Origin: a virus
Lineage: Duplodnaviria; Heunggongvirae; Uroviricota; Caudoviricetes
DNA: 42,367 nt
IMG/VR virus record: IMGVR_UViG_2563366848_000004
Reading direction: 5' to 3' (one strand)
Shown: piece after piece, positions 6,839 through 15,340 of the stretch
How the letters are laid out: every line of letters starts with the position of its first letter
Position numbering within the stretch: position 1 is the first letter of the stretch
Notes under the pieces: generated by a model
Told to the model about the DNA's origin: nothing
Databases searched by the model: none
Seen by the model: the letters and a program-made list of their open reading frames with translations, nothing else
Position numbers and translations under genes: made by a program

Positions 6839-8143
6839 TTATTGACGATTAAAGTAGTTAGAGTTTAGCTCTTTAGGGAAGTAGTGTTTACGATTTACCC
6901 AAACAAATCCATCAACTTTTGATATCACAGCGACATCAACAGGCCCACCGACAGTTTCATAATCATGTGATACTTTTCTTTTGAATGCAGTGATGTTCAC
7001 TAATGATTCGGCCATATACGCAAGATCTGCCTTCCCAAGTGATTGCAACATCGATATCATTTTATTTGTATGGTTATTAACAATATAGCTTTCAAGTTTA
7101 GTATCGTGATCTTGTAAAAGTACGTTTTTGAGTTCCTCAATTTCACTGGAGAAGTGATTGGCTAGTACTCCATTGTTCATTGCAGGGAAAATATTGCTAG
7201 AAACATAATGATTAAGCCGATCAAAAACTTCCTCTGTAAGAGTTCTGTTAAAATTAATGATGTTAGGGTTGCACCCATCAATGAAAGTTACTACTTCATC
7301 TTCTTGAGCAAATGGTATAACAAACCCCATATTGGTTACCTTATTATGGGATTTATCATCAATATTATGGATCATCAATTTGTTTTTAAAAATGCCGTAG
7401 ATATGAAGAGTGCAAATGGAAGGGTAATATTCTTCCTCTCCATAACCTGTTATAACAATCCCTGAATATGTACGACTAGCATGGACTTTGAAAATTAAAC
7501 AAGTGGAATATAATATGACTTTTTCCATAAGCTCTTGCTGTATATTTTCACAGTTATCAAGAACAATAATTGATGAAATGTATGGCGATATTAAATCTTG
7601 TATATATGCTAAAGCATCATTAAACTCTTCTGTATCAAACCCTTCGAAAAAGAGATTATTCCTTAAGATTCCTATCTCTAAATCAAAGGCTTGCTTAACT
7701 ATGTTTTGAAAAATAACATTGTCGAGTTCAACGGCGGGGTTCATTGTTAAATAGTTTACTACATTATTATCATTAATGTATCTCATCAAACCTTTGAGGT
7801 TATCAACAACAAGGTTTATAACGCAAGCCTCTCTCATTTCATTTGTTATAAGGTCTGAGTTACCATTGATGAATTTTACAAAGTCATTAACATATTCTTT
7901 AATGGTAGGGAAACTAGTTTTCCCCAATTGTTTTCTATAGGATTTAATTATAAGTTCCCACGGTGCGCCACCCAGTGTCGCATTATTATAAATCATGATC
8001 CCCACGGGATGGTGTTTAGATAGTTCGAATAGTTTTTCCGCACTATTATTTATTTTTACTAATCTATTATGCTCTGTGGTGACTGCAGAGTCAGCAGCAA
8101 GGGCGATTCCAGTATTATTTATTACAACAATCTCAGCTGTCAT
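6839..8143 (-). CDS. AT-rich 435-aa protein with proteasome-beta/HslV-like Ntn-hydrolase signature; candidate lysogen-expressed defence protein
   Basis: Long ORF in a markedly AT-rich island; start at ATG 8143 (MTAEIVV..., GGGA upstream) preferred over track start 8242, which has no SD; N-terminus T2-x15-D18 ... K30-I and C-terminus DYETVGGPVDVAVISKVDGFVWV resemble Ntn threonine-protease motifs (from memory); same strand as and downstream of the repressor. Confidence 0.75.
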   Translation of the reverse strand: MTAEIVVINNTGIALAADSAVTTEHNRLVKINNSAEKLFELSKHHPVGIMIYNNATLGGAPWELIIKSYRKQLGKTSFPTIKEYVNDFVKFINGNSDLITNEMREACVINLVVDNLKGLMRYINDNNVVNYLTMNPAVELDNVIFQNIVKQAFDLEIGILRNNLFFEGFDTEEFNDALAYIQDLISPYISSIIVLDNCENIQQELMEKVILYSTCLIFKVHASRTYSGIVITGYGEEEYYPSICTLHIYGIFKNKLMIHNIDDKSHNKVTNMGFVIPFAQEDEVVTFIDGCNPNIINFNRTLTEEVFDRLNHYVSSNIFPAMNNGVLANHFSSEIEELKNVLLQDHDTKLESYIVNNHTNKMISMLQSLGKADLAYMAESLVNITAFKRKVSHDYETVGGPVDVAVISKVDGFVWVNRKHYFPKELNSNYFNRQ

Positions 8144-8164
8144 TGCAAAACATCCCGTGTAGTA

Positions 8165-8201
8165 GTGATAAATATTAATTAAATTGATAGTTTTTTTCAA
8201 T
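8165..8201 (-). promoter_or_regulatory. putative sigma70 promoter for the 435-aa gene
   Basis: Minus-strand TTGAAA (8200..8195) - 17 nt - TAATAT (8177..8172), about 30 nt upstream of start codon 8143; AT-rich DNA raises the chance of spurious matches. Confidence 0.35.
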
Positions 8202-8284
8202 CTAACATAAATGGCGGAATCACCCCCCAGTAAAGACATCATTGTCTCATGGGAACTAAAAATTCAGGACAAACCTAAAGCGAT

Positions 8285-8671
8285 TCAGTCCCCCTGCGAG
8301 CGAATCCGCCCCTTCATGTACTTCTCATACAGCTCATCCAGTTCCTTAAGACGTATCGAAAAGATGCGGAGCATGTTCTGTTGCTCTTCTTCTGGCAGCT
8401 GGCGGTAGAGCTCAAGCAGGCGCTGTTCGTCCGGCTTAAGTCCGTCCTTCTCGCCGACATCCTCACCGAGTAACCAAGGCACAGACACGCCAGCTGCGTC
8501 AGCGACAGCGAGAGCTGATTTCTTGCTGATCACGCCTTTTTTAAACCAGCCGTTCACAGACTGCGGGGTTACCCCAGCAACCCTAGCCATATCGGATTTG
8601 GTCATACCGCGCCCGTTCAGCTCTGAAAGGCGTTCGACAAGTATCGGATTAAGTACGGTTTTCTCTTTCAT
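8285..8671 (-). CDS. prophage repressor, HTH XRE family (CI/RacR-like)
   Basis: 128-aa ORF; HTH segment MTKSDMARVAGVTPQSVNGWFKKG; divergent from the Cro-like gene across an operator-rich intergenic region. Confidence 0.8.
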   Translation of the reverse strand: MKEKTVLNPILVERLSELNGRGMTKSDMARVAGVTPQSVNGWFKKGVISKKSALAVADAAGVSVPWLLGEDVGEKDGLKPDEQRLLELYRQLPEEEQQNMLRIFSIRLKELDELYEKYMKGRIRSQGD

Positions 8672-8704
8672 GGTTAGAAGAATAAGCCTTTTTCTTAAAC
8701 TTGA

Positions 8705-8760
8705 AAATTCGCCTCAGGCTTGACAATAAATTAAGTCTCAGGCTTAATTTGATTGTATTC
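8705..8760 (+). promoter_or_regulatory. rightward early promoter with operator sites (OR/pR-like)
   Basis: TTGACA (8720..8725) - about 17 nt - CTTAAT; 17-bp site TTAAGTCTCAGGCTTAA (8731..8747, arms TTAAG/CTTAA) overlapping the -10; second CTCAGGCTT half-site at 8713..8721 overlapping the -35. Confidence 0.55.
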
Positions 8761-8775
8761 AAATCGGAGACAACG

Positions 8776-8994
8776 ATGAACGGGTTAACGAAAGCCATTA
8801 AGTCCGCTGGCACTGCAACAAATCTCGCAACCATGCTGGGCATCAAGCCGATGTCGGTCAGCCGCTGGAAAAACCGGTACCAGGGCGTGGTGCCTGCTGA
8901 TCGGGTCCTTCAAATCTACGCGGCTACCGGCGTAACTCCACACGAGCTGCGCCCTGATCTCTATCCAAACCCAAGTGACGGTTTACCAAAGTAA
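8776..8994 (+). CDS. Cro-like HTH regulator (YdaS family)
   Basis: 73-aa product from internal ATG with GGAGA SD; ...LATMLGIKPMSVSRWKNRYQGVVPADRVLQIYAATGVTPHELRPDLYP matches the YdaS/Cro-type pattern (HTH followed by P..RV..I...TG......LRPDL). Confidence 0.7.
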   Translation: MNGLTKAIKSAGTATNLATMLGIKPMSVSRWKNRYQGVVPADRVLQIYAATGVTPHELRPDLYPNPSDGLPK

Positions 8995-9005
8995 GGAATG
9001 TAACT

Positions 9006-9545
9006 ATGCAATCACTTACGTATCAACAGAGTAACGGGTTCATTTCAGCAGCGCTGATAAATCGCGCTCAACCAAAACCGGGCGTCAGTTGTGGTGCCCT
9101 CCGTGATGCTGTTCGCGCCTGGTCAGCAGTAGCCGGGCAGGACGTTGTAACGGCCCTGATCGTTGAAGAGTGGCACCGGATAGGTGGCGAAGGTATCGAC
9201 TTTCCGGCAGATCACAGCCGTGCCCGGCAGAAGCTGTTCCGCTTCCTGGATAACCATTTCAACAGCGAACGGTACCGCGAGAACGTCCGCCAGCTGACGC
9301 CGGCAATCCTCGCTGTCCTGCCGATTGAATACCGCAATCGTCTGCTACCAGAAGACAACGTAATGGCTCGTCTGGCAAGGCTGGAGAAGGAAACCAGCGA
9401 AGCGAAGATTGCTGTCGCAATGGATGCGCCACGTCATCAGAAGCTGAAAGAGTTGAGCGAGGGGATCGTGGAGATGTATCGCGTTGACCCTGGGTTAACC
9501 GGTCCGTTGATGGAAATGGTGCAGATTATGCTGGGGGCTATATGA
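9006..9545 (+). CDS. hypothetical early regulatory protein (YdaT/CII position)
   Basis: 179-aa ORF directly after the Cro-like gene; assignment by position only. Confidence 0.5.
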   Translation: MQSLTYQQSNGFISAALINRAQPKPGVSCGALRDAVRAWSAVAGQDVVTALIVEEWHRIGGEGIDFPADHSRARQKLFRFLDNHFNSERYRENVRQLTPAILAVLPIEYRNRLLPEDNVMARLARLEKETSEAKIAVAMDAPRHQKLKELSEGIVEMYRVDPGLTGPLMEMVQIMLGAI

Positions 9546-11802: not shown

Positions 11803-11913
11803 TCCATAATATGCATGCCATCGTCCTGAACATACGGTGGCATGCATCCGGCACTACAACAGAAACGTTAAAGTGCAAACAATACAATTCGAGCAATATT
11901 CAACCTGTCACAG

Positions 11914-12054
11914 ATGGCGAATACCACCGCCATTTCGTGCATTCTGTGGTTTCTATTACCCATTGCGTTAATGCTGTCCAATCATCAGCTCGCTGAGGCG
12001 CTGGTTAGGGCTAACCTACAGGAGCTTTGTCAGCAGAAACAAATAGCGGCGTAA
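11914..12054 (+). CDS. possible small hydrophobic protein (46 aa) sharing its C-terminal 20 aa with the upstream remnant
   Basis: Hand-translated MANTTAISCILWFLLPIALMLSNHQLAEALVRANLQELCQQKQIAA; no clear SD; overlaps a 61-aa track ORF in another frame. Confidence 0.25.
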   Translation: MANTTAISCILWFLLPIALMLSNHQLAEALVRANLQELCQQKQIAA

Positions 12055-12071
12055 TAAAACATCGCTAATTC

Positions 12072-12100
12072 AACCCGCTACGGCGGGTTTTCTTTTTTTA
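12072..12100 (+). terminator. rho-independent terminator
   Basis: CCCGC-tacg-GCGGG followed by TTTTCTTTTTTT. Confidence 0.45.
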
Positions 12101-12161
12101 CTACTGACAGAAAATTAACAATTTGTGCTCTTAAAGCGTTGATCATTTCCGCGCATAGGTA

Positions 12162-12181
12162 TACTGTATAAAAACACAGTA
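12162..12181 (+). promoter_or_regulatory. LexA (SOS) box overlapping the dinI-like promoter
   Basis: TACTGTATAAAAACACAGTA = CTGT-N8-ACAG with TA flanks, overlapping a TATACT -10-like hexamer, about 20 nt upstream of the DinI-family gene. Confidence 0.7.
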
Positions 12182-12199
12182 AATGCAATGGGGGCCATT

Positions 12200-12433
12200 A
12201 TGAAAGTTGAATTAACCATTGATCGCATGAAAGAACTTCCTAAAGGCGCAGTACCAGCACTGGAGAAAGAACTGCTTAAGCGCCTGAATGATCACTATGA
12301 CAATTGCAGGCTCACAATCCGCCGTGCCGGGGCCGATGGGTTAAGTGTTTTTGGTGGTGACAAGGACGATAAAAAGAAAATTGAATCAATCCTCCAGGAT
12401 ACCTGGGAAAGCGCTGACGACTGGTTTTATTAG
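12200..12433 (+). CDS. dinI: DinI-family DNA-damage-inducible protein
   Basis: MKVELTIDRMKELPKGAVPALEKEL...LSVFGGDKDDKKKIESILQDTWESADDWFY parallels E. coli DinI as remembered (MRIEVTIAKT...SVIGATKEDKQRISEILQETWESADDWF); LexA box upstream. Confidence 0.8.
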   Translation: MKVELTIDRMKELPKGAVPALEKELLKRLNDHYDNCRLTIRRAGADGLSVFGGDKDDKKKIESILQDTWESADDWFY

Positions 12434-12550
12434 AATTGCGCTTAAGGCTGGCGCGCATTTTTCAGAATACCGCAATTTGCGTAACCCTCTGATGCTGCTG
12501 CCGACAATCTTTAATCGCGTCTGTTAGTCGCTCGAAGGGAGAACATAAAT

Positions 12551-12799
12551 GTGAGTGATTCAGCTTTGCAAACGTCAGAAGACAACTGGTATGACATTGT
12601 AAGAAGGTCTGACGGCTGCGTGGTGTTTAGCTTTCCTTCATCGGGCAGGCATCTAATTTATCGCGTCAATGGCATGGTTTCTATGCGGCCTTTGCTGGAT
12701 GATGAAGAGGTCTTTACTCCTAATGGTTTTATGCAGTTTATTCACCGTCTCGGCTACCGGGTAACCCCACCTTCTGATAATATGAAATCAACGGTCTGA
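12551..12799 (+). CDS. hypothetical protein (82 aa)
   Basis: GTG start with AGGGAGA SD; no family recognised. Confidence 0.45.
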   Translation: MSDSALQTSEDNWYDIVRRSDGCVVFSFPSSGRHLIYRVNGMVSMRPLLDDEEVFTPNGFMQFIHRLGYRVTPPSDNMKSTV

Positions 12800-12833
12800 A
12801 CAACCGTAACCTACTGCGCCACGGAGAGAAACC

Positions 12834-13433
12834 ATGGCGCACGAACTACAACTCATCAAGCATTCCTCAGGAATCCTGATCCCCGCTACGCCGGAGACCA
12901 GTGATTTACTGCAATCAAAAATCAAACTCGGCTCCGTACTGGTGGCTGAGTTCCGGCAGGTACGCAACCCGGCCTTTCACCGTCGTTTCTTCGCGTTACT
13001 CAATCTCGGTTTCGAATACTGGGAACCCACCGGCGGGGCAATCTCCTCCAACGAACGCAAGCTGGTAACCGGCTATGCCAAGTTCCTTGCCTCATTCGCG
13101 GGAAGTGAAGCAGCACTCCTGGATGCTGCTGAGCAATATCTGGACCGCATCGCCGATAAGCGTACTGGTAGCATCTGCGCCTGTAAGTCATTCGATGCAT
13201 ATCGTGCATGGGTCACTATTGAGTCCGGCCATTACGACGCCATTCAGCTGCCTGACGGCACCCTCCGCAAACATCCCCGCAGTATCTCATTCGCAAATAT
13301 GGATGAAACTGAGTTCCAGCAGCTGTACAAAGCCGCGCTCGATGTTCTGTGGCGATGGATACTCTCCCGATCATTTCGCAGTTGTGAAGAGGCAGAAAAC
13401 GCCGCCGCCCAGCTGATGAGCTTTGCGGGGTGA
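12834..13433 (+). CDS. hypothetical nin-region protein (199 aa)
   Basis: ORF with GGAGAGA SD; position equivalent to the lambda nin region; no confident family call. Confidence 0.6.
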   Translation: MAHELQLIKHSSGILIPATPETSDLLQSKIKLGSVLVAEFRQVRNPAFHRRFFALLNLGFEYWEPTGGAISSNERKLVTGYAKFLASFAGSEAALLDAAEQYLDRIADKRTGSICACKSFDAYRAWVTIESGHYDAIQLPDGTLRKHPRSISFANMDETEFQQLYKAALDVLWRWILSRSFRSCEEAENAAAQLMSFAG

Positions 13434-13639
13434 TGGCGATGAAATTTTCCTGGTTCCACCATCACGAATGCACCACCGAACAGGCCGACGAGCTGGTGGA
13501 GAAATACCGGGCGCGCGGTGTAAAGACAGAGCGCAGCCTGAATCGCGACAACATCACCTGGACCGTCAGCGCGCAATTGCCGGAAGGCGATAACGCGCCT
13601 CGCCCGAGCCGGGTATGGCAAAGCAAGGCGTGGGGGTGA
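13433..13639 (+). CDS. small hypothetical nin-region protein
   Basis: Short ORF overlapping the stop of the upstream gene; start ambiguous (13430 GTG, 13433 or 13439 ATG). Confidence 0.4.
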   Translation: MAMKFSWFHHHECTTEQADELVEKYRARGVKTERSLNRDNITWTVSAQLPEGDNAPRPSRVWQSKAWG

Positions 13640-13641
13640 GC

Positions 13642-13932
13642 ATGGCAAATTTACGCAAAGAGGCTCGTGGTCGTGATTGTCAGGTTCGAATTCCCGGCGT
13701 CTGCAACGGTAACCCGGAAACGTCTGTACTGGCGCACATTCGCCTGGCCGGGTTATGTGGCACCGGAATCAAACCGCCTGATCTGATTGCCACCATTGCA
13801 TGCTCTGCCTGTCACGACGAGATCGACCGCCGTACACATTTTGTCGATGCTGAGTATGCTAAAGAATGCGCGCTGGAAGGTATGGCGAGAACGCAGGTTA
13901 TCTGGCTGAAAGAGGGGGTAATCAAGGCGTGA
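13642..13932 (+). CDS. YbcO-like protein (DUF1364-type, Cys/His-rich putative nuclease)
   Basis: Start at internal ATG ([28 protein letters not shown]...[10 protein letters not shown]) with GGGGGTGAG SD; immediately upstream of rusA as in DLP12. Confidence 0.7.
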
Positions 13933-14291
13933 ATACTTACAACATCACATTGCCCTGGCCGCCGAGCAATAACCGCTACTACCGCCATAATCGCGGGCGC
14001 ACGCACATCAGCGCAGAAGGGCAGGCATACCGCGATAACGTCGCCCGAATCATTAAAAACGCAATGCTGGATATCGGTCTGGCTATGCCTGTGAAAATCC
14101 GCATTGAGTGCCACATGCCGGATCGCCGTCGCCGTGACCTGGATAATCTGCAAAAGGCCGCTTTTGACGCACTCACCAAAGCAGGTTTCTGGCTGGACGA
14201 TGCTCAGGTCGTTGATTATCGCGTTGTGAAGATGCCCGTTACCAAAGGTGGAAAGCTGGAACTGACAATCACCGGGCTGGAGGCCGTATGA
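13929..14291 (+). CDS. rusA: Holliday junction resolvase RusA
   Basis: GTG start overlapping upstream stop; [108 protein letters not shown] matches E. coli RusA as remembered. Confidence 0.85.
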
Positions 14292-14424
14292 CATTTGAAT
14301 CCTGTTTTTCCGATCACCTCCGCGTTCGCTGGCAGCGGCTTCGCTTATACCACTTTCCCGGCTCTGTGCTAACGGACTACCGGATACTGAAGAATTACGT
14401 GAAAACTTATGCTGGAGAAGCACT

Positions 14425-15207
14425 ATGAACCTTGAAAACACAGTGAAATACCACTTCGCTAAATCCACACTGATTAGCGATTCTCCGCGCGCTACCGCCT
14501 CCGATTCACTGACCGGTACCGACATAATGGCTGCCATGGGCATGACGCAGGAACGCGCCGCAATGGGTTACAGCGCCTTCCTCGGCAAGATGGGCATAAG
14601 CAATAACGACCGGGATCGGGCGATCGGTCTGCTGGCTGAGTACGCGATGACAAAATGCGACAAGGTTGCCGCACTGCGTAAGCTCGGTGCCGCGGTTAAA
14701 CCTCAGGTGATGCACCAGTTGGCCACCTTCGCTTTTGAGGACTATTCCCGCAGCGCTGCCAGCGTGAAGCAGTGCGATTGTTGTGACGGTCAGGGCTTCA
14801 TTGAGGCTGACGTGTTTACCAATAAATTCCGTAAGCCAGAAGGGAAAATGACCGTGTCCGGGATGGTGAAGGTCAAAGAATCCATCAAAGTGCTATGCAA
14901 AAAGTGTAATGGCTCTGGTGTGGTTAGTGCTTCTTGCAGTGATTGCCATGGGCGCGGCAAGGCAGTGAACCAGGCTCTTACTGAGAAACAGGGCGTTCCT
15001 GTTCTGGCTGACTGTAAGCGCTGCGGAGGGCGTGGGTATGAACGACTTCCGTCGACTGAAGCCTATGCTGCTGTATGCCAGATTACTGACGCCATTAGCC
15101 TGGACACCTGGAAAAAGTCTGTTAAGCCATTCTACGACCTGCTGATCACGAAATTTGATATCGAAGAGTCCTGGGCCGAAAAACAGCTTAAGCAGATAAC
15201 GCGGTAA
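14425..15207 (+). CDS. late-gene antitermination protein Q-like
   Basis: 260-aa ORF with GGAGAAG SD; Cys-rich zinc-binding region (CDCCDGQG ... CKKCNGSG ... CSDCHGRG ... CKRCGGRG); immediately upstream of the lysis cassette. Confidence 0.75.
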   Translation: MNLENTVKYHFAKSTLISDSPRATASDSLTGTDIMAAMGMTQERAAMGYSAFLGKMGISNNDRDRAIGLLAEYAMTKCDKVAALRKLGAAVKPQVMHQLATFAFEDYSRSAASVKQCDCCDGQGFIEADVFTNKFRKPEGKMTVSGMVKVKESIKVLCKKCNGSGVVSASCSDCHGRGKAVNQALTEKQGVPVLADCKRCGGRGYERLPSTEAYAAVCQITDAISLDTWKKSVKPFYDLLITKFDIEESWAEKQLKQITR

Positions 15208-15306
15208 CGCCTATAGCGATAGCCTATGATTTTGTCTTGGGCTATTTACTTTTCCCGAATCTGTGTTAATTTTGTCCCAACGATGGGTTAATGCCTTCGT
15301 TTCAAG

Positions 15307-15340
15307 CCCTGCGGATAACACCGTGGGGTTTTTGCGTTTC
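15307..15340 (+). terminator. possible tR'-like terminator downstream of Q
   Basis: CCCTGCGG-ataaca-CCGTGGGG (stem with G-U pairs) followed by TTTTTGCGTTT; weak. Confidence 0.3.

What the first reader, a model, noticed from the sequence alone, without database searches (positions are those of the whole stretch)
12150..12433. SOS-regulated DinI-family gene carried in the nin-like region
A near-consensus LexA box (TACTGTATAAAAACACAGTA) overlaps the -10 region immediately upstream of a DinI-family gene. Prophage-borne dinI paralogues can modulate RecA activity and hence host SOS response and prophage induction, and here the gene is placed under host LexA control.
Basis: partly seen in the sequence, partly recalled or inferred. 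Interest (0 to 1): 0.45.

Follow-up and report, generated by a model that had tools for sequence, protein, structure and literature searches.

The report
LexA-controlled dinI–antirepressor prophage induction operon

Summary
Observation confirmed. TACTGTATAAAAACACAGTA lies at 12162-12181, overlaps a -10-like TATACT (12160-12165) and sits 18 nt before a 77-aa DinI-family gene (12200-12433). The site is far beyond chance, and its CTGT/ACAG half-sites never vary in 65 distinct related loci.

The box heads an operon: terminator, LexA-controlled promoter, dinI, a 117-nt conserved leader, a GTG-initiated 82-aa ORF (12551-12799), then irsA/DUF1367 (12834-13433). This is the gene order of the Salmonella Gifsy PdinI-gfoA operon (Lemire et al. 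2011). The 82-aa ORF matches the experimentally defined antirepressor GfoA at both termini. The prophage repressor (8285-8671, minus strand, 128 aa, HTH only, no S24 peptidase domain) matches GfoR at both termini.

The likely mechanism is: LexA cleavage, then antirepressor synthesis, then inactivation of a non-cleavable repressor, then induction. In Gifsy, deleting dinI did not change induction.

The module is already known. It occurs in phage mEp237 (99% identical) and in 53 of 5,426 complete E. coli genomes.

Three side observations have modest interest:
- The dinI-antirepressor leader is strongly conserved, with a terminator-like hairpin and a possible SD-occluding helix.
- Start codons are non-ATG in 80 of 80 loci.
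- A second strong LexA-like box lies inside an AT-rich moron (7536-7555).

The parts
12072..12099 (+). Intrinsic-terminator-like hairpin plus T-run. It insulates the SOS promoter from upstream (PR-side) transcription.
   Evidence: 7-bp stem with 5 GC pairs, followed by TTCTTTTTTT. The hairpin is conserved in Gifsy-1/2, SEN34 and Klebsiella phages. Lemire et al. describe such terminators preceding the LexA box in all Gifsy prophages.
12139..12165 (+). Putative sigma-70 promoter PdinI: -35 TTGATC (12139-12144), 15-bp spacer, -10 TATACT (12160-12165).
   Evidence: Read from the sequence. TTGA and GGTATACT are conserved across 9 phage loci. The consensus scan did not call it because the spacing is 15 bp. 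In Gifsy-1 a single SNP in the -10 region of this promoter abolishes phage production (PMC5322425). Assignment of the hexamers here is inferred.
12162..12181 (+). LexA (SOS) box TACTGTATAAAAACACAGTA.
   Evidence: Half-sites 12164-12167 and 12176-12179 show zero variation in 65 distinct related sequences, while the central 8 nt vary at 0.24, about the rate of dinI third codon positions (0.29). A box is present at 385-405 nt upstream of the antirepressor start in 80 of 80 IMG/VR loci.
12200..12433 (+). dinI paralogue (77 aa), first gene of the operon.
   Evidence: Pfam PF06183 E=3.8e-26. phrog_189. PDB 1GHH E=9.5e-18. NCBIfam chromosomal-DinI equivalog scores 91.4 bits, below its cut-off of 111, so it is a family member but not the host orthologue.
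12434..12550 (+). Conserved 117-nt untranslated leader between dinI and the antirepressor. It contains a hairpin (12437-12442 paired with 12450-12455) plus U5, a candidate anti-SD (12485-12492) pairing with the SD region (12532-12539), and GGGAG at 12536-12540.
   Evidence: Variability is 0.070, against 0.288 for dinI third codon positions. It is 86% identical to Gifsy-1 LT2, while the dinI 5' part is 62% identical. Helix counts are, folds. The function is inferred, not shown.
12551..12799 (+). GTG-initiated 82-aa ORF, a GfoA-type antirepressor homologue.
   Evidence: The gfoA primers in Table S1 of PMC3121763 encode MSNSALQK... and ...RRLGYRVTPPSDI. The window ORF reads VSDSALQT... and ...HRLGYRVTPPSDNMKSTV. 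It is 90% identical to Salmonella protein P0003, which starts MSNSALQK, and 93% identical to the TTG-initiated SEN34 ORF. It belongs to phrog_340. It occupies the same slot between dinI and irsA as gftA/gfoA.
12834..13433 (+). irsA homologue (DUF1367), third gene of the operon.
   Evidence: Pfam PF07105 E=9.3e-93. The Gifsy-1 irsA deletion primer pp644 nearly matches window 12828-12865.
8285..8671 (-). Prophage repressor (128 aa) of the short, non-cleavable GfoR/GtgR/DicA type. It is the presumed target of the antirepressor.
   Evidence: Pfam finds HTH_3 only and no Peptidase_S24. It is 27% identical to LT2 GogR/GtgR at E=2e-8 over nearly the full length. The gfoR primers encode MKEKTHQ... and ...EKYMKGRIRTRED, and the window protein reads MKEKTVL... 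and ...EKYMKGRIRSQGD. There is a weak match to the NCBIfam DicA subfamily.
8683..8750 (.). Operator-like repeats between the divergent repressor and cro-like genes.
   Evidence: the palindrome AAATTAAGTCT-C-AGGCTTAATTT at 8728-8750, and two copies of ..CTCAGGCTT spaced 24 bp apart. Their role as operators is inferred only.
8773..8994 (+). Cro-like (YdaS family) regulator, transcribed divergently from the repressor.
   Evidence: Pfam YdaS_toxin E=1.4e-14 and P22_Cro E=1.3e-6. It is followed by a YdaT-family gene at 9006-9545.

Best explanation
The LexA box is the operator of a Gifsy-type SOS induction operon in a Rac/Gifsy-like lambdoid prophage of E. coli. In the lysogen, host LexA sits on 12162-12181 and blocks the promoter whose -10 it overlaps. 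An upstream terminator (12072-12099) keeps other transcription out. DNA damage activates RecA and LexA cleaves itself. The promoter then fires and transcribes dinI, a conserved leader, a small GTG-initiated antirepressor (12551-12799) and irsA/DUF1367. The antirepressor binds the prophage repressor (8285-8671). That repressor is a 128-aa HTH protein with no self-cleavage domain, and binding removes it from its operators and starts the lytic programme.

What is shown here from sequence: the site, its conservation, the gene order, homology of the antirepressor and repressor to GfoA and GfoR, and the absence of an S24 domain.

What is shown experimentally only for the Salmonella orthologues: LexA dependence, co-transcription from PdinI, antirepressor-repressor binding, lack of repressor cleavage, and no induction phenotype for a dinI deletion.

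What is inferred for this window: that the same steps operate here. DinI is co-expressed, and its contribution (presumably binding RecA filaments) remains undefined.
For: - Site: it is unique and far beyond chance.
- Conservation: in 80 of 80 IMG/VR loci that encode a GfoA-type ORF, a LexA box lies 385-405 nt upstream. DinI lies between them in 79 of 80. Half-sites are invariant while the spacer drifts.
- Gene order: terminator, LexA box, dinI, small ORF, DUF1367, the same as in Gifsy-1 and Gifsy-2.
- Antirepressor: the termini match gfoA primer-encoded sequences. The ORF is 90% identical to a Salmonella protein that has GfoA's first 8 residues.
- Repressor: HTH only, 128 aa. It is homologous to GtgR at E=2e-8, and its termini match GfoR.
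- Literature:
  - PMC3121763: the LexA-controlled dinI-antirepressor-irsA operon, non-cleaved repressors, and a note that the dinI-irsA region is conserved in Escherichia prophages.
  - PMC5322425: a -10 SNP in PdinI-gfoA abolishes Gifsy-1 production.
  - PMC8072944: Gifsy dinI homologues are SOS-induced, with the box 19 bp from the ATG, the same spacing as here.
Against: - Nothing has been tested experimentally for this E. coli prophage.
Homology rests on primer-encoded termini plus close Salmonella homologues.
- The extreme C-terminus differs: ...PPSDI in GfoA, ...PPSDNMKSTV here.
- A terminator-like hairpin plus T5 follows dinI and could limit read-through. The nearly identical Gifsy sequence is read through in vivo.
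- The promoter hexamers have an unusual 15-bp spacing.
- The same antirepressor allele is found with different repressors (ECCWS199, mEp237), so cognate pairing is assumed, not proven.
Confidence: 0.85

Rival explanations
1. One reading: the payload of the LexA promoter is DinI itself. The prophage paralogue binds RecA filaments and so tunes the host SOS response and prophage induction. The downstream genes are incidental.
For: The DinI fold and the RecA-binding C-terminal helix are conserved. dinI is kept in 79 of 80 loci and shows the variability pattern of a gene under protein-level purifying selection: codon positions 1, 2 and 3 vary at 0.12, 0.07 and 0.29.
Against: In Gifsy-1 and Gifsy-3, non-polar dinI deletions had no significant effect on induction level or rate. 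The minimal region needed for induction maps to the ORF between dinI and irsA (PMC3121763). The repressor here has no cleavage domain, so modulating RecA could act on it only indirectly, through LexA.
Confidence: 0.1
2. The module is present but does not control this prophage. Either the 82-aa protein does not recognise the resident 128-aa repressor (it could act only in trans on other prophages), or the prophage is defective.
For: Antirepressors of this family act across heteroimmune phages, and some pairs are non-cognate (PMC3121763 abstract). Identical antirepressor alleles occur with different repressor N-terminal domains. The slot between dinI and irsA holds at least three allele types.
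Against: The repressors found with GfoA-type alleles share a nearly identical C-terminal half, and the window repressor matches GfoR at both termini. The window carries a complete set of int, recET, immunity, O/P, Q, lysis and morphogenesis ORFs. It is 99% identical in this region to mEp237, which is deposited as a complete phage genome.
Confidence: 0.08
3. The LexA-like sequence is a chance palindrome or an evolutionary relic with no regulatory role. The operon is then expressed only by read-through from PR.
For: No direct binding data exist for this locus. The promoter hexamers are imperfect and spaced 15 bp apart.
Against: No site of this quality appears in 100 shuffles, and HI is 1.98 against a best shuffle of 8.62. 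The half-sites are invariant in 65 distinct sequences while the spacer varies. A conserved terminator lies immediately upstream. The orthologous site is required for mitomycin C induction in Gifsy-2.
Confidence: 0.01

Closest known systems
PdinI-gfoA operon and GfoR repressor of Salmonella prophage Gifsy-1 (ATCC14028) (Lemire, Figueroa-Bossi & Bossi 2011, PMC3121763)
   Same: Same order: terminator, LexA box, dinI, small non-ATG antirepressor ORF, irsA. The LexA box lies at the same distance from the dinI ATG. The antirepressor and repressor termini match gfoA and gfoR primer-encoded sequences. The repressor is short and has no S24 domain.
   Different: The host is E. coli. The LexA spacer is ATAAAAAC rather than GTTTATAT. 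The start codon is GTG rather than UUG. The antirepressor has a longer C-terminal tail. The repressor differs within its N-terminal DNA-binding part (MKEKTVL against MKEKTHQ at the start), so immunity specificity may differ. There is no experimental work on this copy.
GftA/GtgR of Gifsy-2 (and LT2 Gifsy-1)
   Same: Same operon architecture. The dinI-antirepressor leader is 86% identical. The repressor is 27% identical.
   Different: The antirepressor belongs to a different sequence family: phrog_4847 against phrog_340. BLASTP gives E=0.98. The profile-profile match is only 52% probability, E=1.5e-4.
Enterobacteria phage mEp237 gp48-gp50 (NC_019704)
   Same: 99.1% DNA identity over 11900-12900, including the LexA box, dinI, leader, ORF and DUF1367.
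   Different: The immunity region differs: two tandem repressor-like genes, gp38 and gp39. The ORF is annotated only as a hypothetical protein.
Tum of coliphage 186 and AntC of N15 (LexA-controlled antirepressors)
   Same: The same logic: LexA represses an antirepressor that inactivates a non-cleavable repressor. Tum also carries a DinI-like half (as described in PMC3121763).
   Different: Tum is a single fused polypeptide in the order antirepressor then DinI. Here the two are separate genes in the reverse order. I found no sequence relationship to the 82-aa ORF.
Rem/DicA of the Qin prophage (bioRxiv 10.1101/2023.04.14.536235)
   Same: A small antirepressor acting on a short DicA/GfoR-type repressor. 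Rem was found through GfoA PSI-BLAST.
   Different: The inducing signal for rem is unknown, and it is not reported to lie in a LexA-controlled dinI operon.
Chromosomal E. coli dinI (PDB 1GHH)
   Same: Same family and the same C-terminal acidic helix. Also LexA-regulated.
   Different: The window gene is a paralogue: the NCBIfam equivalog score is below cut-off. It is embedded in a phage operon.

Membership tests
E. coli-type LexA (SOS) box | Palindromic CTGT-N8-ACAG core with an AT-rich spacer, close to TACTGTATATATATACAGTA | tested here: met
   17 of 20 positions match the consensus and both half-sites are perfect. HI is 1.98 on a matrix rebuilt from recalled E. coli boxes.
E. coli-type LexA (SOS) box | Placed so as to occlude a promoter | tested here: met
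   The box overlaps the -10-like TATACT (12160-12165) and the expected start site, and ends 18 nt before the ATG. The spacing is the same as for the Gifsy dinI boxes. The promoter assignment itself is inferred.
E. coli-type LexA (SOS) box | Bound by LexA, with the gene induced by DNA damage | not testable with these tools
   Needs EMSA or footprinting and expression assays. This has been shown only for the Salmonella orthologues.
DinI family (Pfam PF06183) | Profile match above the gathering threshold over the full domain | tested here: met
   91.6 bits against a cut-off of 24.2, covering profile positions 1-63 of 63.
DinI family (Pfam PF06183) | Conserved C-terminal acidic helix that contacts RecA | tested here: met
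   ILQDTWESADDWF aligns with ILQETWESADDWF of 1GHH. RecA binding itself cannot be tested here.
Chromosomal DinI orthologue (NCBIfam NF007893 equivalog) | Score at or above the curated equivalog cut-off | tested here: not met
   91.4 bits, below the cut-off of 111. It is a prophage paralogue.
Gifsy-type LexA/antirepressor induction module | Operon order: terminator, LexA box, dinI, small antirepressor ORF, irsA (DUF1367), outside the immunity region | tested here: met
   The module lies about 3.5 kb from the repressor gene, between P and Q.
Gifsy-type LexA/antirepressor induction module | Antirepressor homologous to GfoA, GfhA or GftA | tested here: met
   The N- and C-termini match gfoA primer-encoded residues. 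The ORF is 90% identical to a Salmonella protein with GfoA's N-terminus. The relation to GftA is only marginal.
Gifsy-type LexA/antirepressor induction module | Non-canonical (GUG/UUG) start codon of the antirepressor | tested here: met
   GTG at 12551. In 80 related loci the start is GTG or TTG in all 80.
Gifsy-type LexA/antirepressor induction module | Short repressor (about 130-150 aa), homologous to GfoR/GtgR, lacking a self-cleavage domain | tested here: met
   128 aa with HTH_3 only. E=2e-8 to GtgR. Termini match GfoR.
Gifsy-type LexA/antirepressor induction module | The antirepressor binds the repressor and releases it from DNA, and the repressor is not cleaved on induction | not testable with these tools
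   Needs biochemistry and Western blots.
Lambda CI-type self-cleaving repressor (Peptidase_S24) | C-terminal S24 peptidase domain with a cleavage site | tested here: not met
   No S24 match in the repressor or in the neighbouring minus-strand ORFs. The repressor is only 128 aa long.

The most novel reading that the evidence does not exclude
The 117-nt dinI-antirepressor leader (12434-12550) may be a dedicated dosage and threshold device. A leaky terminator hairpin directly after dinI, an anti-SD:SD helix occluding the antirepressor ribosome-binding site, and an obligatory GTG/TTG start codon would together keep antirepressor output well below DinI output. Only a strong or sustained SOS signal would then commit the prophage to lysis. 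The leader is conserved across three unrelated or barely related antirepressor alleles and four host genera, so it would be a shared regulatory cassette of this whole phage group. It could alternatively, or also, serve as a recombination linker for swapping antirepressor alleles.
Probability: 0.3. Interest if true: 0.4.

Novelty: already known. Interest (0 to 1): 0.2.

Why it matters
For this window, the result corrects the functional reading. The SOS box is the induction switch of the prophage, acting through an antirepressor, and is not merely a regulator of a RecA modulator. More broadly, the GfoA-type protein is labelled 'hypothetical protein' in every source record I saw. The exact sequence occurs on at least 1,000 contigs, and the locus is present in about 1% of complete E. 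coli genomes. Automated annotation therefore hides how these prophages are induced. That affects predictions of which prophages respond to DNA-damaging antibiotics, and of cross-induction in strains carrying several prophages. The conserved leader offers a testable handle on how induction thresholds are set.

Tried and rejected
- Direct BLASTP of the 82-aa ORF against LT2 GftA gave E=0.98. The two are different families, and the profile-profile link is marginal.
- Pfam, NCBIfam, PADLOC and PDB sequence searches found nothing for the 82-aa ORF.
- The AlphaFold model of the ORF was low-confidence: pLDDT 66, pTM 0.39, four strands plus one helix. Foldseek against the PDB gave no match better than E=2.7. 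No fold assignment is made.
- Rfam gave no hit at gathering threshold in the whole window. The only sub-threshold hit is isrK, 14.9 bits, E=1.5, on the upstream terminator, which I treat as chance.
- Folding energies of the leader are no better than shuffles, with z-scores from -0.4 to +0.9. The RNAalifold covariation term is about -0.6. The proposed helices therefore rest on conservation of pairing in register, not on energy or compensatory change.
- I considered a small uORF in the leader (ATG 12492 to TAG 12527). I rejected it because there is no SD and because indels and variable stop positions occur among relatives.
- The repressor's PDB hits to polyubiquitin are zero-stretch artefacts.
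- The literature search for 'mEp237' returned only unrelated DOI strings.
- Conservation of the second LexA-like box could not be tested. The host gene exists only as copies at least 99% identical in E. coli and IMG/VR, or as homologues below 40% amino-acid identity elsewhere.

Full report
**Observation.** The sequence TACTGTATAAAAACACAGTA is present once, at 12162-12181 on the + strand. It differs from the E. coli LexA consensus TACTGTATATATATACAGTA at three positions, all in the central spacer. It is the only site in the 42-kb window within three mismatches of that consensus, and none appeared in 100 dinucleotide-preserving shuffles.

I rebuilt a heterology-index matrix from 27 E. coli SOS boxes recalled from the literature. 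This is my own reconstruction, not the published table. On it the site scores 1.98, better than 23 of the 27 genuine boxes. The best site in 30 composition-preserving shuffles of the window scored 8.62.

The box overlaps a -10-like TATACT (12160-12165), which follows a -35-like TTGATC (12139-12144) after 15 bp. The consensus scan did not call this promoter because it allows only 16-18 bp spacers. TTGA and GGTATACTGT are nonetheless conserved across nine related phage loci.

Eighteen nucleotides after the box, behind a GGGGG Shine-Dalgarno, lies the ATG at 12200 of a 77-aa ORF. It matches Pfam DinI at E=3.8e-26 and E. coli DinI (PDB 1GHH) at E=9.5e-18, including the C-terminal acidic helix. It scores below the NCBIfam cut-off for the chromosomal DinI orthologue, so it is a paralogue.

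**What the locus is.**

- Upstream, a GC-rich hairpin with a T-run (12072-12099) looks like an intrinsic terminator.
- Downstream of dinI come a 117-nt non-coding leader, a GTG-initiated 82-aa ORF (12551-12799) and a DUF1367 gene (12834-13433, Pfam E=9.3e-93).

[quoted passage not shown] The DNA aligns through the terminator, promoter, LexA box and leader.

Lemire, Figueroa-Bossi and Bossi (PMC3121763) showed the following for these prophages:

- A LexA box preceded by a terminator lies next to the dinI homologue.
- Replacing it with PBAD abolishes mitomycin C induction and makes induction arabinose-dependent.
- The region needed for induction is the small ORF between dinI and irsA, which starts with GUG or UUG and encodes an antirepressor (GftA, GfoA, GfhA).
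- The repressors (GtgR, GfoR, GfhR) are short, are not cleaved, and are removed from DNA by antirepressor binding.
- dinI is the first gene of this LexA-regulated operon.
- Non-polar dinI or irsA deletions did not change induction.

Owen et al. (PMC5322425) showed that a single SNP in the -10 region of PdinI-gfoA makes Gifsy-1 non-inducible. Mérida-Floriano et al. (PMC8072944) found the three Gifsy dinI homologues induced 4.6-23-fold by nalidixic acid, each with one LexA box 19 bp from the ATG. The window has the same spacing.

**Membership tests.** The full GfoA sequence was not in any collection I could read, but Table S1 of PMC3121763 gives the recombineering primers.

| Gene | Primer-encoded sequence | Window sequence |
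|---|---|---|
| gfoA, start | ATG AGT AAT TCA GCT TTG CAA AAG (MSNSALQK) | GTG AGT GAT TCA GCT TTG CAA ACG (VSDSALQT) |
| gfoA, end | ...RRLGYRVTPPSDI | ...HRLGYRVTPPSDNMKSTV |
| gfoR, start | MKEKTHQ | MKEKTVL |
| gfoR, end | EKYMKGRIRTRED | EKYMKGRIRSQGD |

A Salmonella protein that begins MSNSALQK (P0003, a cluster of 270 members) is 90% identical to the window ORF. The TTG-initiated ORF of Salmonella phage SEN34 is 93% identical.

The window ORF 8285-8671 on the minus strand is 128 aa. It has only an HTH_3 domain and no S24 peptidase domain. It is 27% identical to LT2 GogR/GtgR over almost its whole length, at E=2e-8. It is divergently arranged with a YdaS/Cro-like gene and a YdaT gene, with operator-like palindromes between them.

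The window therefore carries both halves of the Gifsy-1-type circuit. The LT2-type antirepressor GftA is a different sequence family: BLASTP gives E=0.98, and the profile-profile match is 52% probability, E=1.5e-4.

**Comparative support.** A scan of IMG/VR with the GfoA-type alignment found 351 contigs, of which the best 80 loci were kept.

- In all 80, a LexA box (HI 1.3-5.3) lies 385-405 nt upstream of the antirepressor start.
- dinI lies between them in 79 of 80.
- The antirepressor start codon is GTG or TTG in 80 of 80, never ATG.

I pooled these with the annotated phages to get 65 distinct sequences and measured the mean minority-base fraction per region:

| Region | Variability |
|---|---|
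| LexA half-sites (eight positions) | 0.000 |
| LexA central eight positions | 0.24 |
| dinI codon position 1 | 0.12 |
| dinI codon position 2 | 0.07 |
| dinI codon position 3 | 0.29 |

This is the signature of selection on LexA binding. The locus is 99.1% identical to phage mEp237 and occurs in 53 of 5,426 complete E. coli genomes. The encoded 82-aa protein is named 'hypothetical protein' everywhere I looked.

**Mechanism and confidence.** I put 0.85 on the following chain. LexA represses PdinI. SOS-induced LexA cleavage allows transcription of dinI, the antirepressor and irsA. The antirepressor then inactivates the non-cleavable repressor and induces the prophage.

The sequence features and homologies are shown here. 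The biochemical steps are shown only for the Salmonella orthologues and are inferred for this copy.

No consensus intrinsic terminator is detected on the + strand between the weak hairpin after dinI and 15304. The 3' extent of the SOS transcript is therefore undefined.

**The leader.** The non-coding 117 nt between dinI and the antirepressor vary at 0.070. That is as little as dinI second codon positions and four-fold less than third positions. Against Gifsy-1 LT2 the leader is 86% identical, while the dinI 5' part is 62% identical and the antirepressor is unalignable. Blocks of the leader persist in Klebsiella phages that carry a third, different ORF type in the slot.

Two helices are kept in register:

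- A hairpin, 12437-12442 paired with 12450-12455, followed by U5. Its free energy is -7.8 kcal/mol. 93.7% of cells are paired, against 18-74% when the partner is slid.
- CCCUYUGA (12485-12492) pairing with the Shine-Dalgarno region (12532-12539). 92.2% of cells are paired, against 15-63% when slid. Changes are one-sided and G-U-compatible; there are no compensatory double changes.

Folding energies are not better than shuffles and Rfam has no family here. This remains a hypothesis. A leaky terminator, an occluded ribosome-binding site and a weak start codon would all keep antirepressor output low. A role as a recombination linker for exchanging antirepressor alleles is an alternative.

**Verdict.** Novelty: already known. 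Interest is low at 0.2, with some residual value in the conserved leader and in the second LexA-like box noted below.

Noticed in passing
window 7536-7555 (inside ORF 6839-8242, minus strand): A second LexA-like box, TGCTGTATATTTTCACAGTT, scores HI 5.29. That is about the median of real E. coli boxes and better than any site in 30 shuffles (best 8.62). It lies in the middle of an AT-rich 467-aa gene next to the repressor gene. A +-strand promoter-like TTGAAA-17-TAATAT ends about 20 nt upstream. It could be an internal or antisense SOS-controlled promoter, or chance in AT-rich DNA. Conservation could not be tested, because only copies at least 99% identical exist.
   Followed up: partly
window 6839-8242 (-): An AT-rich (32-34% GC) 467-aa moron lies directly downstream of the repressor gene, the position that rexAB holds in lambda. 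It belongs to phrog_5990 (E=3.7e-178) and has no Pfam, NCBIfam or PADLOC match. Homologues at 29-40% identity occur in Stenotrophomonas, Providencia and Porphyromonas phages and in Streptococcus satellite phages. It is a likely lysogen-expressed accessory or defence gene of unknown function.
   Followed up: partly
window 12434-12550: The non-coding leader between dinI and the antirepressor is as conserved as second codon positions (0.070 against 0.288 for dinI third positions). It contains a terminator-like hairpin plus U5 and a helix that would occlude the antirepressor SD. Its function has not been described in the papers I read.
   Followed up: partly
window 12551-12799; L002:2651-2872; L008:855-1046: At least three sequence types occupy the slot between dinI and irsA: GfoA-type, GftA-type and a third Klebsiella type starting VELDIAEVV. 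All are flanked by the conserved leader and irsA, which suggests cassette-like exchange of antirepressor alleles.
   Followed up: partly
window 8285-8671 (-); L013:8358-8777; L001:1269-1661 and 1681-2148: Repressors found with GfoA-type antirepressors share a nearly identical C-terminal half (EDVGEKDGLKPDEQRLLELYRQLPEEEQ...LKELDELYxKYM), while their N-terminal HTH parts diverge. This fits a common antirepressor-docking or dimerisation surface with differing immunity specificity. mEp237 carries two such genes in tandem.
   Followed up: no
window 12549-12554: A minimal start-stop ORF, ATG-TGA, overlaps the GTG start codon of the antirepressor (aaATGTGAgt). The same arrangement appears in the other GTG-type alleles (GAATGTGAGTG) but not in the TTG-type ones. 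It may be coincidental, or it may add a further brake on translation.
   Followed up: no
window 12551-12799: The exact 82-aa protein occurs on at least 1,000 contigs, and its 90% cluster relatives occur across Escherichia, Salmonella, Citrobacter, Enterobacter and Klebsiella. Every listed source names it 'hypothetical protein' or 'bacteriophage protein'. This is an annotation gap for a family whose function is experimentally known.
   Followed up: yes
window 12456-15331 (+): No consensus intrinsic terminator is found on the + strand between the dinI hairpin and 15304-15331, just past Q. The LexA-controlled transcript could in principle reach ybcO, rusA, ylcG and the antiterminator gene Q.
   Followed up: no
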